IMG/VR virus record: IMGVR_UViG_2571042056_000001
Span: 1 to 5,506 of that record
Source: a virus
Lineage: Monodnaviria; Loebvirae; Hofneiviricota; Faserviricetes; Tubulavirales; Inoviridae
DNA: 5,506 nt
Direction: 5' to 3' (one strand)
Position 1 is the stretch's first letter. Each line of letters starts with the position of its first letter. The notes under the pieces were generated by a model. It searched no databases and had not been told where the DNA came from. It worked only from the letters and a program-made list of their open reading frames with translations. This document shows, in pieces, positions 2,082-5,432 of this stretch. The position numbers and the translations under genes are program-made.

Positions 2082-3107
2082 ATGGCTGTATCATTGTATA
2101 TGGGTGTGATGGGGAGCGGTAAAACATACGAGGTTGTTTACAGTGTTATTATCCCTGCGGTTTCAGCAGGCCGCCGTGTAATCACCAATATCAAAGGGAT
2201 AAATGAAGAGAAAATACATGAGTATTGTCGTTCTAAATTCAAGACTAAGCAGCCTGGTCGTGTTGTTTTCGCATCGACGGATGAAATATTAAAGGATGAT
2301 TTCTTCCCTTTTTACTCTGATGATGAATCTTCAGAACAAAAAGCAGCATTTTGTGAATATGGTGATCTGATTTGTCTTGATGAATTATGGTCAATATGGC
2401 CATCGGACTCAAAACTATCTGAGGCACATAAAAGATTTATTTCAATGCACCGTCATATGACACATGCTGTTAGTGGGGTATCATGTGATTTGGTCATCAT
2501 CAATCAGGGTGTAGATGGTGTACCCCGGTATCTTAAAGAGCGTATTGAATCGACATACCGGATGACCAAGCTAAAATCTCTGGGGCTATCAAAGTCATAT
2601 CGTGTCGATGTTTTTTCTGGTGCCAAGGTATTCAAAAATAATAAAGTCAGTACTCGTAACTATCAGTACAAAAAAGCCGTTTTTGAATTATACAAATCTT
2701 ATGAAACCACTAACGGAATGGAAGCGACAACAGACTCTAGACAAAACGTTTTTTCATCCGCCTTTCTTTGGGTAAAAATTGCATTTTTATTATTTATTGT
2801 ACTGGCTTCTATATATTCAATAAGAACGGTCTGGGTGGATATTAGAGGTGAGTCAGTACCAGAGCCGAAACATACCGAACCGGAAGTTGTACTGCCTTCA
2901 TCAGCAAAGATTGCGAAACCTGATGCCCCGTACTCAAAGCGCTGGCGTATTGCCGGGGAGTTAAAATCAGATTATGTCAGCAAGGTTGTTCTTACAGACA
3001 GCAATGGTCGGTTTAGAACGCTACCGGCAAATCAGTTCGACGGAGAAGGTTTTACTTTAAGTGGAATCATTGATGGTGAAATTGTCACCTATTTTACTGG
3101 GGGTTAA
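2082..3107 (+). CDS. zot: Zot-family (zonula occludens toxin-like) assembly NTPase, inovirus pI homolog (341 aa)
   Basis: N-terminal Walker A P-loop MGVMGSGKTYEV. GRRVITNIKGIN and ISMHRH closely resemble the GRHIITNVRGLN and FDMHRH segments of CTXphi Zot as I recall them. A Walker B-like hydrophobic-Asp-Glu run (LICLDELW), a single TM segment after the NTPase domain (FLWVKIAFLLFIVLASIYSI) and a C-terminal periplasmic-type tail complete the pI/Zot architecture. RBS AGGA 7 nt before the ATG. Confidence 0.9.
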   Translation: MAVSLYMGVMGSGKTYEVVYSVIIPAVSAGRRVITNIKGINEEKIHEYCRSKFKTKQPGRVVFASTDEILKDDFFPFYSDDESSEQKAAFCEYGDLICLDELWSIWPSDSKLSEAHKRFISMHRHMTHAVSGVSCDLVIINQGVDGVPRYLKERIESTYRMTKLKSLGLSKSYRVDVFSGAKVFKNNKVSTRNYQYKKAVFELYKSYETTNGMEATTDSRQNVFSSAFLWVKIAFLLFIVLASIYSIRTVWVDIRGESVPEPKHTEPEVVLPSSAKIAKPDAPYSKRWRIAGELKSDYVSKVVLTDSNGRFRTLPANQFDGEGFTLSGIIDGEIVTYFTGG

Positions 3108-3108
3108 T

Positions 3109-4320
3109 ATGAAATTATTTTATATCATAATAGTGGTATTTATGATTCCACCTGCATTATCAAAAGGCGTTATACTGAATCTCTCAGGATTAACGCTTAA
3201 TGATGCCATTACTTTGTTTTATACTGAAGTTATGAGAAAACCGTTCATGGTTTCTCCTGAACTTATCACGGACAAACGACAAGTTAATTTCAATATTACG
3301 CCAGATATGGATGAGTATACGTTTATTATGCGTTATCTCCAGAATGCCGGAGTCTCTGTAGCCAGAAAAAATGGTGTGGATTACTTTTATCTCCAGGAGA
3401 AAAAAGTATACGAAGCCCCGAAATATTCTTTTGTTTACACACCACAGTACCGTTCTGTTGCTTATCTGGCTGATATTCTTCAGTCACAAGTGAGCGGGTC
3501 ATTTTCAAATGGTGGGCAAATAGGGAATGGCGATGTTTCTCCTGCGATGATTAAAGACAATACCGCATCCGATTTTTTGAGCAGAAATGGGGATGTACTT
3601 GTTTTTTACGGTACGAAAAAAGACATTCAGCGGGTCGAAGATTTGCTTCCTCTTATCGACCGGGCCGCCGAAGAAGTTATTGTCGCCGGGTACGTGTTTG
3701 AGGTTCAGACGTCTGAGCGAAATGGTTCTGGCCTGGCACTGGCTGCCAAACTTATGTCGGGAAAATTCACAATAGAAACGGGTACTGCACAAGGACTCAG
3801 CAACTTTGTCCGTTTCAGTTCTGGATCGCTCGATGCACTTTATGAGTTGTTCAGAACAGACAGCCGTTTTCACGTCGTCAGTTCGCCACAATTGCGGGTC
3901 AGAAATGGCTCTAAAGCATCATTTTCTGTGGGATCTGACGTGCCGGTACTCGGTCAGGTCAGCTATGTTGATGGTCGTCCGGTTCAGTCCATTGATTATC
4001 GTTCAAGTGGCGTAATTTTTAACGTTCAGCCGCAAATCCGGGCTGCTACGATTGACCTTAATATTCATCAGCAACTGTCTAATTTTGCAAAAACAGAGAC
4101 TGGGGTGAATAACAGCCCGACGCTCATTAAACGGGAGGTGAACACCGATGTTTCGCTCAAGGATGGCGACATAATTTTACTTGGTGGTCTGGCTGAGAAT
4201 AAAGACAGTAATGCAGATACGGGCCTGTCATTTTTGCCGTCATGGTTCGGAACAACGGCAACTGAAAAAGCAAAAACAGACATCATTATTGTACTTCAGG
4301 CCAGAAAAATCAGGCGGTGA
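3109..4320 (+). CDS. Secretin, inovirus pIV-like outer-membrane export channel (403 aa)
   Basis: Start chosen at ATG 3109 (GGGGG RBS at 3099-3103, 1 nt after the pI stop) rather than track start 3061. Signal peptide MKLFYIIIVVFMIPPALS. C-terminal secretin-type region with the conserved-looking DGDIILLGGLAENKDSNADTGLSFLP segment followed by a short basic tail. Confidence 0.8.
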   Translation: MKLFYIIIVVFMIPPALSKGVILNLSGLTLNDAITLFYTEVMRKPFMVSPELITDKRQVNFNITPDMDEYTFIMRYLQNAGVSVARKNGVDYFYLQEKKVYEAPKYSFVYTPQYRSVAYLADILQSQVSGSFSNGGQIGNGDVSPAMIKDNTASDFLSRNGDVLVFYGTKKDIQRVEDLLPLIDRAAEEVIVAGYVFEVQTSERNGSGLALAAKLMSGKFTIETGTAQGLSNFVRFSSGSLDALYELFRTDSRFHVVSSPQLRVRNGSKASFSVGSDVPVLGQVSYVDGRPVQSIDYRSSGVIFNVQPQIRAATIDLNIHQQLSNFAKTETGVNNSPTLIKREVNTDVSLKDGDIILLGGLAENKDSNADTGLSFLPSWFGTTATEKAKTDIIIVLQARKIRR

Positions 4321-4329
4321 GAGCAGGGC

Positions 4330-4361
4330 GGCCAGCCCCGCAGCTCCGTGAGGAGCTGGCC
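4330..4361 (+). promoter_or_regulatory. GC-rich stem-loop just after the secretin gene (terminator, packaging-signal or origin-hairpin candidate)
   Basis: GGCCAGC (4330-4336) is complementary to GCTGGCC (4355-4361), and CAGCTCC (4341-4347) to GGAGCTG (4352-4358) with a GTGA loop; the arms overlap, so alternative foldings exist. Local GC richness contrasts with the AT-rich surroundings. No following T-tract, so not a classic intrinsic terminator. Confidence 0.3.
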
Positions 4362-4410
4362 GTACTGAGACACCGACTGTTGATTGATTGTGTAAATCAT
4401 GAACGGCGTG

Positions 4411-4428
4411 ATTTGCGCATGCGCAAAT
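4411..4428. promoter_or_regulatory. Palindromic operator-like repeat, copy 1 (ATTTGCGCATGCGCAAAT, perfect 18-bp palindrome)
   Basis: Perfect inverted repeat read directly from the sequence, preceded by GTGAT. Ends 27 nt upstream of ATG 4455. Confidence 0.6.
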
Positions 4429-4454
4429 TTCTCGTCAATTCTTATGGGGAATCT

Positions 4455-4769
4455 ATGGCTACAAAGTTGAAGTTTATCCGACTGAAAATTGAAGATGAGT
4501 TAATCCAGCCGGTTAATAATCTGGCAGGCATTCGCGATGAGTTAAAGGCCGACATAGCCAGTGAAATCGTTGAGTGGTATCTGAACCAACGAAAAGCAGG
4601 GCATGTACACATACGGTACTTCTCCAGTCCGAAAGGCTCAGATTATCAGGGGATCTGGTTCCATCCGGATACGATCAAACGAGCGAAACAGCAGGCCGAA
4701 GACGATCAACAACCGTTAAACCGACTGATTTATACGGCTCTGGCCCGTTACTTTGAACAATCGATCTAA
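4455..4769 (+). CDS. Hypothetical protein (104 aa); possible regulatory or partner protein of the downstream HTH gene
   Basis: In-frame ATG at 4455 with GGGGA 4 nt upstream. The longer track ORF (GTG at 4317) would run through the GC hairpin and palindrome copy 1, so the shorter start is preferred; ATG 4419 inside the palindrome is another alternative. Mixed charged, non-hydrophobic product (MATKLKFIRLKIEDEL...RLIYTALARYFEQSI) with no motif I can assign. Confidence 0.5.
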   Translation: MATKLKFIRLKIEDELIQPVNNLAGIRDELKADIASEIVEWYLNQRKAGHVHIRYFSSPKGSDYQGIWFHPDTIKRAKQQAEDDQQPLNRLIYTALARYFEQSI

Positions 4770-4785
4770 CATGCTCAAAGTGATA

Positions 4786-4803
4786 ATTTGTGCATGCGCA
4801 AAT
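4786..4803. promoter_or_regulatory. Palindromic operator-like repeat, copy 2 (ATTTGTGCATGCGCAAAT, one mismatch), abutting a -10-like TGATAAT
   Basis: Same motif as copy 1 with C to T at 4791. Preceded by AAGTGATA, giving a -10-like TGATAAT (4781-4787). Ends 24 nt upstream of ATG 4828. Confidence 0.6.
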
Positions 4804-4827
4804 CCGCATCTGACAGGATGATTAGTT

Positions 4828-5094
4828 ATGCAGCAATTTGATGTGTCTCATCCGGGCGAAATTATTGCCAGAGAGTTGGCTGAGATGGGCATTAGTGTTA
4901 ACCGATTTATCGAAGAAACTGGCATCCAGCCAGCTTTTTTAGAAGGGAAAATGGCGTTAACCGCTGAGCAGGCCGTTCCGATCGTAGCAATAATGGGAAG
5001 CACTCCTGATTTTTGGTTACGTCTTCAGTATGCATATGATCTGCGACAGCAGAAAAATAAAGCAGAAGCAGGCAAATATGACGATCACAGCTGA
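4828..5094 (+). CDS. higA: HigA/XRE-family helix-turn-helix DNA-binding protein (88 aa); antitoxin-like or phage repressor-like
   Basis: Product MQQFDVSHPGEIIARELAEMGISVNRFIEETGIQPAFLEGKMALTAEQAVPIVAIMGSTPDFWLRLQYAYDLRQ... carries the N-terminal HPGE motif, an HTH core and the GSTPxFWLxLQxxYDL signature typical of HigA/VapI-type proteins. RBS AGGA 9 nt upstream. The symbol is a family-level assignment, not proof of antitoxin function. Confidence 0.8.
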   Translation: MQQFDVSHPGEIIARELAEMGISVNRFIEETGIQPAFLEGKMALTAEQAVPIVAIMGSTPDFWLRLQYAYDLRQQKNKAEAGKYDDHS

Positions 5095-5257
5095 AAAAAT
5101 TGAAAAAAGTTTGAAGCAGGTCAGACGTGAACGGGATGCCTGGGAAAACAGCACATCCCGTACAGGCATAAATCAATATAGACTGATGTGTATTCTTGAG
5201 TCCTTACTGGAAGATCTTGGACCAGAAGGCATCGATATCCAGGATGAAATTAAGTAA
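5078..5257 (+). CDS. Small hypothetical protein (59 aa) overlapping the 3' end of the HTH gene
   Basis: ATG 5078 lies in frame inside track ORF 5030..5257 and overlaps the HTH gene by 17 nt, suggesting translational coupling. Charged, helical-looking product (MTITAEKIEKSLKQVRRERDAWEN...). Weak RBS; the track start at 5030 is an alternative. Confidence 0.35.
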   Translation: MTITAEKIEKSLKQVRRERDAWENSTSRTGINQYRLMCILESLLEDLGPEGIDIQDEIK

Positions 5258-5260
5258 GAG

Positions 5261-5276
5261 TTTGCGCATGCGCAAA
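5261..5276. promoter_or_regulatory. Palindromic operator-like repeat, copy 3 (TTTGCGCATGCGCAAA, perfect 16-bp core)
   Basis: Perfect 16-bp palindrome immediately after the 59-aa ORF stop. Ends 23 nt upstream of a GTG (5300) that follows a consensus AGGAGG (5289-5294). Confidence 0.6.
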
Positions 5277-5358
5277 TTGACGGTGCTTAGGAGGTATCGG
5301 TGAAAATATTCAAAATCGACGTCACGTAGGTTCTGCCACAAAATCGAGTTTAAGTGAT

Positions 5359-5374
5359 TTTGCGCATGCGCAAA
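5359..5374. promoter_or_regulatory. Palindromic operator-like repeat, copy 4 (TTTGCGCATGCGCAAA, perfect 16-bp core)
   Basis: Perfect 16-bp palindrome preceded by AAGTGAT, the same upstream flank as copy 2. Ends 32 nt upstream of ATG 5407, which opens a frame running to the window end. Confidence 0.6.
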
Positions 5375-5409
5375 TGTAGTGATAGATCATTTAAGAACGC
5401 GACGAAATG

Positions 5410-5432
5410 CCGGAAATTCTTTCCGGTGTTTT
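5410..5432 (+). terminator. Hairpin followed by a T-run (terminator-like, or a 5' regulatory structure)
   Basis: CCGGAAA (5410-5416) pairs with TTTCCGG (5420-5426) around a TTC loop, then TGTTTT (5427-5432). It overlaps the first codons of the open frame starting at 5407, so its role is ambiguous. Confidence 0.3.

What the first reader, a model, noticed from the sequence alone, without database searches (positions are those of the whole stretch)
4455..5257. HigA-like HTH gene flanked by two unknown small genes: phage repressor module or atypical toxin-antitoxin/immunity system
The 88-aa protein carries HigA/VapI antitoxin-type features, but the 104-aa upstream product does not resemble RelE/HigB-type toxins as far as I can tell by eye. 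The two genes are separated by a 58-bp gap holding its own operator copy rather than being operon-coupled, and a third 59-aa gene overlaps the 3' end of the HTH gene by 17 nt. This is neither a canonical higBA pair nor a described CTXphi-type rstR arrangement. It may be a repressor with novel partners, for example an antirepressor, a superinfection-exclusion factor or a new toxin.
Basis: partly seen in the sequence, partly recalled or inferred. Interest (0 to 1): 0.7.

Follow-up and report, generated by a model that had tools for sequence, protein, structure and literature searches.

The report
Phage TraY-like regulator, orphan HigA cassette
The three small genes at the end of this E. coli filamentous prophage are real, but they are not a toxin-antitoxin pair: the first encodes a DNA-binding protein shaped like the plasmid transfer factor TraY, the second is an antitoxin relative that has lost both its toxin and its DNA-reading residues, and the third has no known relative.

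Summary
Observation confirmed. ORFs of 104 aa (4455-4769), 88 aa (4828-5094) and 59 aa (5078-5257), the 58-bp gap, the 17-nt overlap and four copies of an 18-bp palindrome are all present, and all three ORFs are under purifying selection. The window is the right half of a CTXphi-style, dif-integrated inovirus found in 9 of 5,426 complete E. coli genomes.

Interpretation partly supported.
- The 88-aa protein is a true HigA relative (E 1.5e-22 to Rts1 HigA). It lacks four recognition-helix residues, including Arg40, the only base-specific contact, and has no HigB neighbour.
- The palindrome also occurs in sister phages that lack HigA, so the TraY-like protein is its likeliest binder. This is inferred, not shown.
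- The classical repressor is a separate 177-aa XRE protein beside rep.
- The 59-aa protein has no detectable homologue. It has a stand-alone paralogue and is frameshifted in the three Salmonella prophages compared.

A toxin-antitoxin function is unsupported.

The parts
3109..4320 (+). Gene IV secretin. This is the last morphogenesis gene, and the module starts right after it.
   Evidence: Pfam Secretin 7.3e-25. PHROG 1012, M13 protein IV assembly, 1.2e-123.
4411..4428 (.). Palindrome O1, ATTTGCGCATGCGCAAAT, ending 26 nt before the 104-aa start codon.
   Evidence: Kept at the same place in every clade member that has the 104-aa gene.
4455..4769 (+). 104-aa TraY-like protein with two ribbon-helix-helix repeats in one chain (strand 6-11, helices 14-26 and 31-47; strand 64-69, helices 71-83 and 88-103).
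4786..4803 (.). Palindrome O2, ATTTGTGCATGCGCAAAT (one mismatch), ending 24 nt before the HigA-like start codon.
   Evidence: The copy is perfect in L007, L008, L011 and L014.
4828..5094 (+). 88-aa HigA-family protein with no toxin partner and a 4-residue deletion in the recognition helix; pI 4.8.
   Evidence: TIGR02607 53.9 bits against a 47.7 cut-off. 4mcx HigA 1.5e-22 with the gap at T37-R40. Role of Arg40 from PMC12266136. dN/dS 0.14-0.28.
5078..5257 (+). 59-aa acidic protein with no homologue; overlaps the HigA-like gene by 17 nt.
   Evidence: Eight database hits, all from this or closely related prophages. Only sub-threshold coiled-coil-type hits in Pfam and PDB, none in PHROGs, NCBIfam or PADLOC. 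Paralogue p64. dN/dS 0.24 against L011.
5260..5277 (.). Palindrome O3, GTTTGCGCATGCGCAAAT, starting 2 nt after the 59-aa stop and 22 nt before the truncated next ORF.
5300..5329 (+). Nine-codon remnant of a 62-aa gene that is intact in relatives (L007 10223-10411, L014 2771-2959).
   Evidence: Sequence comparison. The O3-O4 spacing is 98 bp here and 229 bp in L007, L008, L014 and L017.
5358..5375 (.). Palindrome O4, TTTTGCGCATGCGCAAAT.
5399..5463 (.). Conserved non-coding element containing the hairpin CCGGAAATTCTTTCCGG (5410-5426). In every clade member compared (window/L001, L003, L004, L007, L008, L017) it lies next to a palindrome.
   Evidence: It forms a stem in the ssDNA fold.
5463..5506 (+). 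Start of a degenerate remnant of the p64 paralogue (…VCSLLVSALVKELSG…). It runs past the window end towards attP.
   Evidence: ORF L001 17354-17638, compared by eye with p64 of L011. tblastn gave no p64 hit at this position in L001; it did hit the equivalent segments of L007 and L008.

Best explanation
The interval is the accessory and regulatory end of a temperate filamentous phage that integrates at dif in the manner of CTXphi. It is not a toxin-antitoxin locus.

The 104-aa gene is a backbone gene of the phage. It encodes a monomeric tandem ribbon-helix-helix DNA-binding protein with the architecture of F-plasmid TraY. I infer that this protein recognises the 18-bp palindrome (A/T)TTTGCGCATGCGCAAA(T/A). 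A copy of that palindrome ends 8-26 nt upstream of its own start codon and of each intact downstream small gene or operon. The protein would then regulate itself and a variable string of small cassettes that lie between gene IV and attP.

The HigA-like gene and the 59-aa gene form one such optional, translationally coupled cassette. The HigA-like protein descends from a genuine Rts1-type HigA antitoxin. It has lost its HigB partner and the turn of the recognition helix that carries the only base-specific contact. It therefore most likely acts through protein-protein contacts, with the 59-aa protein or with a HigB-type toxin encoded elsewhere, and not as the operator-binding repressor.

Shown:
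- the gene anatomy;
- the fold and family of the 104-aa protein;
- HigA ancestry and the deletion;
- the distribution of genes and palindromes across relatives.

Inferred:
- which protein binds the palindrome;
- that binding controls transcription;
- what the HigA-like and 59-aa proteins do.
For: Phage context:
- Coat, g3, g6, Zot and secretin genes lie upstream.
- The prophage is a tandem array next to hipBA, ending at a perfect dif site.
- attP consists of two inverted dif-like sites that fold as a forked hairpin.
- A separate 177-aa XRE HTH gene lies divergent from rep.

104-aa protein:
- AlphaFold2 gives pLDDT 94.7.
- The profile matches the RHH proteins SvtR and ORF56.
- F TraY is described as a monomer carrying the whole RHH-dimer fold, binding DNA through its two beta-strands (PMC12117103).
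- Homologues occur in 41 Enterobacterales plasmids, 30 of them typed conjugative. In the two records inspected (both MOBF/MPF_F) and the Rahnella contig, they sit directly ahead of DsbC-TraE-TraK-TraB-TraV-TraC.
- The gene is present directly after gene IV in every clade member in which that junction was sequenced and intact.

Palindrome:
- Four copies against 0.04 expected.
- It always lies upstream of the 104-aa gene, including in L002-L004, which lack HigA. It also lies before HigA, before the 62-aa gene and before p64.
- It is absent from the rep/repressor promoter region.

HigA-like protein:
- E 1.5e-22 to 4mcx, with T37-V38-S39-R40 deleted in all phage copies but not in a 57%-identical non-phage relative.
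- Arg40 is the only sequence-specific contact, and T37 and S39 contact phosphates (PMC12266136).

Cassette behaviour:
- HigA and p59 occur together in L001, L007, L008 and L011-L015, and are absent from L002-L004.
Against: - No binding experiment exists, so assigning the palindrome to the 104-aa protein is inference by co-occurrence.
- The same 16-mer also occurs in four more distant inoviruses with no detectable 104-aa homologue. In L033 it lies between gII and gV. In L035 and L044 it overlaps the g3 start codon. L037 has three copies. This argues for a host factor, another phage protein or a structural role.
- No sigma-70 consensus promoter was found around any copy, so an operator-in-promoter geometry is not demonstrated.
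- The plasmid homologues do not have this palindrome nearby.
- A shortened recognition helix does not prove loss of DNA binding. S23, A36 and the K45 equivalent are retained.
- The short contigs L011-L013 show the HigA-p59-p64 string, with palindromes, behind unrelated upstream DNA. The 104-aa gene is therefore not always immediately adjacent.
Confidence: 0.5

Rival explanations
1. The TraY-like protein works mainly as TraY does in a relaxosome. It would bind sites near the phage plus-strand origin or attP and help the HUH-type Rep protein nick or terminate, or help package or recombine the DNA. On this view the palindromes are architectural sites and not transcriptional operators.
For: - The fold and the plasmid synteny are those of a relaxosome accessory factor.
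- Rep belongs to the Phage_CRI/G2P family.
- O4 abuts a conserved hairpin element and lies about 190 bp from attP.
- In Ff-type phages the region after gene IV holds the origins. This rests on established knowledge and was not tested here.
Against: - Copy number (2-4) and positions track the small genes. Each copy ends 8-26 nt before the start codon of an intact gene or operon, including cassette-specific ones.
- No Ff-type nick sequence was found, and the origin is unmapped.
- F TraY also acts as a transcriptional activator (own knowledge, not checked here), so the two roles are not exclusive.
Confidence: 0.2
2. The palindrome is bound by something other than the 104-aa protein: a host protein common to enterobacterial hosts, the 177-aa XRE repressor, or it acts as a hairpin in ssDNA or RNA. 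The 104-aa protein would then have different targets.
For: - The identical 16-mer is found in inoviruses that lack the 104-aa family (L033, L035, L037, L044).
- Six of the 20 IMG/VR contigs holding the 16-mer are inoviruses. The total of 20 is close to a rough chance estimate that rests on an assumed collection size (own reasoning, not computed).
Against: - No known E. coli regulator site that I can recall matches it. This is memory, not a test.
- L033 and L037 each encode a small single-domain RHH-like protein (judged by eye from the sequence), so the link to RHH binders may still hold.
- The palindrome is absent from the rep/repressor control region, where the 177-aa repressor should act.
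Confidence: 0.2
3. First reader's reading A. The HigA-like protein is the operator-binding repressor of this module, auto-repressing through the palindrome in its own 58-bp leader.
For: - HigA antitoxins bind inverted repeats in their own promoters as dimers (PMC12266136).
- A palindrome ends 24 nt upstream of its start codon.
- L011-L013 show palindromes with HigA but no adjacent 104-aa gene.
Against: - T37-R40 are deleted, including the only base-reading residue.
- The protein is acidic, pI 4.8.
- The palindrome is kept in L002-L004, which have no HigA.
- The Rts1 HigA half-site (TGTA) is unlike TTTGCGCA.
Confidence: 0.1
4. First reader's reading B. HigA-like plus the 59-aa protein is a new antitoxin-then-toxin addiction pair that stabilises the prophage.
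For: - The gene order, the 17-nt overlap and the small sizes fit a type II pair.
- The two genes co-occur in eight loci.
- Loss of the 59-aa gene with retention of HigA in Salmonella is a known decay route for such pairs.
Against: - The 59-aa protein has no toxin homology, is acidic and soluble-looking, and is shorter than almost all type II toxins.
- Its paralogue p64 is kept under purifying selection alone in L004 with no HigA.
- PADLOC and NCBIfam give nothing.
Confidence: 0.12

Closest known systems
F-plasmid TraY (relaxosome accessory protein and tra regulator; PDB 9f0x chain E)
   Same: - Plasmid members of the same sequence family occupy the traY position at the head of F-type transfer operons.
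   Different: - Only about 10% sequence identity to F TraY, and no hit to any Pfam TraY model.
- The phage copy sits after gene IV of an inovirus with no relaxase or transfer genes.
- Its presumed site is a perfect 18-bp palindrome. TraY instead binds the imperfect repeats of oriT (PMC12117103).
Proteus vulgaris Rts1 HigA antitoxin (PDB 4mcx, 6cf1, 6w6u)
   Same: 56% identical over residues 1-80. The N-terminal segment and helices 4-5 are conserved. It passes TIGR02607.
   Different: - No HigB gene upstream or anywhere in the phage.
- T37-V38-S39-R40 are deleted from the recognition helix.
- The C-terminus is about 16 residues shorter.
- It is followed by an overlapping 59-aa gene.
- The nearby palindrome is unlike the hig operators.
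CTXphi RS2 region (rstR repressor divergent from rstA; RstC antirepressor on the RS1 satellite)
   Same: - dif integration through a forked-hairpin attP made of two inverted dif-like sites.
- Tandem prophage arrays.
- An XRE-type repressor divergent from rep.
- Variable accessory genes next to attP.
   Different: - The finding's three genes are not at the rstR position. They sit at the other end of the genome, after gene IV.
- There is no sequence relation to RstR, RstB or RstC (not tested directly; none of the family libraries reports one).
- The phage encodes its own secretin.
UPphi, Ypfphi and CUS-1 dif-integrating enterobacterial inoviruses (PMC7307601)
   Same: - The same hosts, dif integration and tandem arrays.
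- Unknown small genes (h1, h2) occupy the region that is intergenic in IKe and M13, with reverse-strand cargo next to dif.
   Different: - UPphi morphogenesis genes are described as about 70% identical to IKe and I2-2. Here the best secretin hits in the phage collection are gut metagenomic inoviruses at about 49% identity, and no IKe hit was returned.
- Whether h1 or h2 equals any of the three genes could not be checked.
AvtR and other tandem-RHH regulators of archaeal filamentous and rod-shaped viruses
   Different: No detectable sequence relation. The hosts are archaeal. Operator architectures were not compared.

Membership tests
HigBA type II toxin-antitoxin system | Antitoxin belongs to the HigA (VapI/XRE) sequence family | tested here: met
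   TIGR02607 53.9 bits against a 47.7 cut-off. E 1.5e-22 to HigA 4mcx.
HigBA type II toxin-antitoxin system | Adjacent, co-oriented HigB/RelE-fold toxin gene (normally upstream of higA) | tested here: not met
   The upstream gene is a tandem RHH protein. No toxin family hit for either neighbour in Pfam, NCBIfam, PHROGs or PADLOC.
HigBA type II toxin-antitoxin system | Intact HTH recognition helix with the base-reading arginine (Arg40 in Rts1 HigA) | tested here: not met
   The four residues T37-R40 are missing in all phage copies. Their role is taken from PMC12266136.
HigBA type II toxin-antitoxin system | Antitoxin auto-represses by binding inverted repeats in its own promoter | tested here: inconclusive
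   A palindrome lies in the leader. The same palindrome serves genes in phages without HigA. No promoter was mapped.
HigBA type II toxin-antitoxin system | Partner protein is toxic and is neutralised by the antitoxin | not testable with these tools
   This needs expression assays.
TraY-type tandem ribbon-helix-helix proteins | Two RHH repeats in one chain forming a pseudo-dimer | tested here: met
   [not shown]
TraY-type tandem ribbon-helix-helix proteins | Sequence membership in a curated TraY model | tested here: not met
   No Pfam or NCBIfam TraY hit. Only sub-threshold Arc, CopG and DUF6364 hits.
TraY-type tandem ribbon-helix-helix proteins | Encoded at the head of a conjugative transfer operon near oriT | tested here: not met
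   Met for the three plasmid or plasmid-like records inspected, which carry homologues of the Rahnella copy (itself 47% identical to the phage protein). Not met for the phage copy, which follows gene IV.
TraY-type tandem ribbon-helix-helix proteins | Binds specific DNA sites and assists an HUH nickase and/or regulates promoters | not testable with these tools
   Only co-occurrence with the palindromes is available.
Arc/Mnt/CopG-type phage or plasmid RHH repressors | RHH fold together with a symmetric operator overlapping its own promoter | tested here: inconclusive
   The fold is met. A palindrome ends 26 nt upstream of the start codon. No promoter was identified.
CTXphi-type rstR repressor module | HTH repressor transcribed divergently from the rep gene | tested here: not met
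   That position is held by a different, 177-aa HTH_3 protein. The finding's HTH gene is about 6 kb away on the rep strand.

The most novel reading that the evidence does not exclude
A filamentous phage has captured two plasmid-world parts and rewired them.
- The first is a TraY-family tandem-RHH protein. It would serve as master regulator, through one 18-bp palindrome, of a shuffling array of small operator-plus-gene cassettes next to attP.
- The second is a HigA antitoxin stripped of its DNA-reading residues. It would work as a free-standing decoy that neutralises HigB-type toxins of host or plasmid abortive-infection systems, with the 59-aa protein as its modulator.

A further possibility is that the phage TraY-like protein cross-talks with pYE854-type conjugative plasmids, whose pili might be the phage receptor.
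Probability: 0.12. Interest if true: 0.75.

Novelty: new variant of a known kind. Interest (0 to 1): 0.5.

Why it matters
- It gives a fold and a testable role to an unannotated protein family of about 60 clusters. Every record listed or inspected here annotates its members as hypothetical protein. The family sits at the traY position of the enterobacterial conjugative plasmids inspected and, unexpectedly, in a temperate inovirus.
- It shows a natural HigA derivative that kept its antitoxin body but lost the base-reading turn of its HTH and its toxin. That makes it a candidate orphan antitoxin or decoy in a phage.
- It defines a simple operator-plus-small-gene cassette architecture next to a CTXphi-type attP. 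In other inoviruses, virulence or host-modifying genes sit in this region.
- It corrects the automatic label "HigA family addiction module antitoxin", which would otherwise suggest a toxin-antitoxin system in these clinical E. coli and Salmonella genomes.

Tried and rejected
- DNA searches of the window and of 4300-5506 against the phage collection found no match.
- tblastn of the 104-aa protein against phages found no match.
- PADLOC gave no hit for any of the three proteins.
- Pfam, NCBIfam and PHROGs gave only sub-threshold hits for the 104-aa and 59-aa proteins.
- The genes after gene IV in the nearest catalogued inoviruses, Dulem virus 52 and D_HF2_82, are unrelated.
- The search for related loci with the 55-sequence alignment failed because no stretch was conserved enough.
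- Contexts of distant family members were on short, uninformative contigs.
- The 358-aa cargo protein is not related to the 358-aa Rahnella protein.
- The palindrome is not present beside the plasmid homologues.
- No Ff-type origin nick sequence was found.
- The sigma-70 scan found no promoter.
- Rfam found no RNA family.
- The afdb50 fold library was unavailable.
- I considered and rejected the 150-aa form of the first ORF (GTG 4317). Its 46-residue extension overlaps gene IV and the palindrome, is not conserved in L003 and L004, and lies outside the family alignment.
Full report
**1. What the window is**

The ORFs upstream of the finding are a standard inovirus morphogenesis block:
- major coat protein, 171-392;
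- g3-like protein, 515-1780;
- g6 (DUF2523), 1790-2077;
- Zot/g1, 2082-3107;
- secretin g4, 3109-4320.

The whole window is 99.7-100% identical to the chromosomes of 9 of 5,426 complete E. coli genomes. It is never on a plasmid and usually occurs in 2-4 places per genome.

In strain EC4 (L001) it is part of a tandem prophage array beside hipBA. The array ends at a perfect dif site. Just beyond the window end lie two inverted dif-like sites around a GC hairpin. They fold as a forked ssDNA hairpin (z = -6.6). This is the CTXphi type of attP.

A 177-aa XRE-family protein (HTH_3, 29.9 bits) is encoded divergently from rep, in the classical repressor position. Its control region has TGACAC repeats and no copy of the palindrome discussed below.

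**2. The observation**

Every stated coordinate holds (sequence). The 104-aa ORF is 4455-4769, the 88-aa ORF 4828-5094 and the 59-aa ORF 5078-5257. The gap is 58 bp and the overlap 17 nt.

The palindrome core TTGCGCATGCGCAA occurs at 4413, 4788 (one mismatch), 5262 and 5360. The expectation is 0.04 copies. As 18-mers the sites are O1 4411-4428, O2 4786-4803, O3 5260-5277 and O4 5358-5375.

Comparison with diverged copies gives dN/dS of 0.06-0.13 for the 104-aa gene, 0.14-0.28 for the HigA-like gene and 0.24 for the 59-aa gene. All three are therefore real coding genes.

**3. The 104-aa protein**

- Word-indexed search found only 10 close relatives among 5.8 billion proteins. In the relatives whose contigs were fetched (L002-L004), and in L007, L008, L014 and L017-L019, the gene lies directly after g4 of sister prophages of E. 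coli and Salmonella.
- An exhaustive profile search found about 60 cluster representatives of 95-130 aa that align over the full length.
- The family profile matches solved RHH proteins: SvtR at 1.4e-4, ORF56 at 5e-4, then CopG and omega. Single members give sub-threshold Arc, CopG and DUF6364 hits in both halves.
- With the 55-sequence alignment, AlphaFold2 gives pLDDT 94.7 and pTM 0.87. The topology is strand-helix-helix twice.
- The relaxosome paper states that F TraY is a monomer containing the whole RHH-dimer fold, and that it reads the major groove with its two strands (PMC12117103).
- A Rahnella homologue, 47% identical, lies ahead of DsbC-TraE-TraK-TraB. Relatives of that Rahnella copy (43-63% identical to it) occur in 41 Enterobacterales plasmids, 30 of them typed conjugative. 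In the two records inspected, both MOBF/MPF_F and including pYE854, they occupy the same pre-tra position as traY.

The protein is thus a TraY-like tandem-RHH DNA binder. It is a backbone gene of this phage clade and not a toxin.

**4. The HigA-like protein**

It passes TIGR02607. It is 56% identical to Rts1 HigA over 80 residues (E 1.5e-22).

The alignment has one gap, at T37-V38-S39-R40 of the recognition helix. The gap is present in every phage copy, including the 70-72%-identical variants. It is absent from a 57%-identical non-phage relative.

[quoted passage not shown] The protein is acidic, with pI 4.8.

There is no HigB-type gene anywhere in the phage. In the phage collection, its relatives are only 31% identical HigA genes of Stx phages. 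The one annotated record among those listed, GER2, labels the matched region "plasmid maintenance system killer".

**5. The 59-aa protein**

It has eight database relatives, all from this or closely related prophages. Nothing turns up in PDB, Pfam, PHROGs, NCBIfam or PADLOC beyond coiled-coil noise.

It has a paralogue of 64 aa, about 49% identical. Both share the motif RRERD(A/V)W.
- In L011 and L014 the paralogue follows the next palindrome.
- In L004 it stands alone in a phage with no HigA.
- In this window it survives only as a degenerate remnant.

HigA and p59 always travel together (L001, L007, L008, L011-L015). They are absent from L002-L004. In the three Salmonella prophages compared (L017-L019), p59 carries a 22-nt frameshift deletion while HigA remains intact with dN/dS about 0.2. 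Their HigA variant, P0077, is recorded on 171 contigs.

Deletion variants also exist. One fuses the 104-aa N-terminus to the p59 C-terminus (P0017). One frameshifts the 104-aa gene (P0009). The second EC4 copy has lost the stretch from g4 to the middle of p59.

**6. The palindrome**

Across all clade members it ends 8-26 nt upstream of the start codon of the 104-aa gene, of the HigA-p59 operon, of a 62-aa gene and of p64 wherever these are intact. The 62-aa gene is reduced to nine codons here. In L004 it lies about 170 nt upstream of p64. The region therefore reads as a string of operator-plus-small-gene units between g4 and attP.

The 104-aa protein is the only module-encoded DNA-binding protein that accompanies the palindrome in all complete clade genomes, including those without HigA. 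I therefore assign the palindrome to it. This is an inference.

The main caveat is that the same 16-mer occurs in four more distant inoviruses with no detectable 104-aa homologue.
- In L033 it lies between gII and gV.
- In L035 and L044 it overlaps the g3 start codon.
- L037 has three copies.

By eye, L033 and L037 each encode a small single-RHH protein. The binder could still be a host factor or another protein. No sigma-70 consensus promoter was detected, and Rfam finds nothing.

**7. Comparison with known systems, and verdict**

| Compared with | Same | Different |
|---|---|---|
| HigBA | Sequence family of the antitoxin | No toxin neighbour; no intact reading head |
| TraY | Architecture; plasmid relatives in the traY position | No match to curated TraY models; no tra context in the phage |
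| CTXphi | Lifestyle (dif integration, tandem arrays, divergent repressor) | These genes are not at the rstR position |
| UPphi phages (PMC7307601) | Unknown genes h1 and h2 in the equivalent region | Morphogenesis genes of this phage are not IKe-like; h1 and h2 could not be compared |

I rate this as a new variant of known kinds, of moderate interest. It comprises an unannotated TraY-like family shared by conjugative plasmids and an inovirus, a HigA derivative that has lost its toxin and its DNA-reading residues, and a cassette-like operator array. None of the functions has been shown.

Noticed in passing
L001 17530-17660 (window coordinates about 5530-5660, just past the window end); also L001 8530-8660 and 24996-25023: CTXphi-type attP. 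Two inverted dif-like sites (GGTGCGCATAATGTCATACGCGTTATGTTGAAA and its imperfect inverse) flank a GC hairpin and fold as a forked ssDNA hairpin (z -6.6). The array ends at a perfect E. coli dif site and begins with a hybrid site next to hipA.
   Followed up: partly
L001 24313-24690 compared with 15109-17260: The second tandem prophage copy has a deletion of about 1.8 kb running from early in gene IV to the middle of the 59-aa gene. It removes the 104-aa and HigA-like genes. That copy cannot make its own secretin or these regulators.
   Followed up: partly
L001 8659-9735 compared with 17661-18993; L003 3398-4753; L004 132-1470: The cargo next to attP differs between the two tandem copies and among relatives, on the reverse strand in L001 and L003 and on the forward strand in L004. 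One EC4 copy has a 358-aa protein of unknown function. The other has a DUF2971 protein plus an MtlR-like protein. Other relatives carry other genes. This is a hot spot for gene exchange.
   Followed up: no
window 5300-5329 and 5463-5506 (continuing in L001 to 17638): Remnants of two further small genes that are intact in relatives: a 62-aa gene cut to nine codons, and the C-terminal half of the 64-aa paralogue of the 59-aa gene, fused to a conserved hairpin element.
   Followed up: partly
L033 281-296; L035 7759-7774; L044 5579-5594; L037 3891-3906, about 6886-6901 and 6921-6936: The identical palindrome TTTGCGCATGCGCAAA occurs in four more distant inoviruses that lack the 104-aa family. In L035, L037 and L044 its central ATG appears to be the start codon of gene III (MRKF… signal peptide), right after a terminator-like hairpin.
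   Followed up: partly
L017-L019 10283-10322; proteins P0017 and P0009: Recurrent decay of the module. There is a 22-nt frameshift deletion in the 59-aa gene of the three Salmonella prophages compared, a deletion fusing the 104-aa N-terminus to the 59-aa C-terminus, and a frameshifted 104-aa gene in E. coli LD39-1.
   Followed up: partly
L027 6995-7318 (pC16EC0292-3); L028 7007-7327 (pYE854); L021 5965-6303 (Rahnella): Homologues of the 104-aa protein are annotated only as hypothetical protein in the plasmid records listed (30 of 41 shown). In the conjugative plasmids inspected they sit where traY sits in F. These plasmids probably have an unrecognised TraY.
   Followed up: partly
L001 9827-9896 (repeated at 19031-19100): A 70-nt GC-rich double-hairpin element immediately downstream of the 177-aa repressor gene marks the left edge of the repeated phage unit. 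It is a candidate packaging signal or minus-strand origin.
   Followed up: no
L001 10422-10525: The rep/repressor intergenic region has a near-consensus promoter (TTGACA … TATAAC) and TGACAC direct repeats. These are probably the operators of the 177-aa repressor and are distinct from the palindrome circuit.
   Followed up: no
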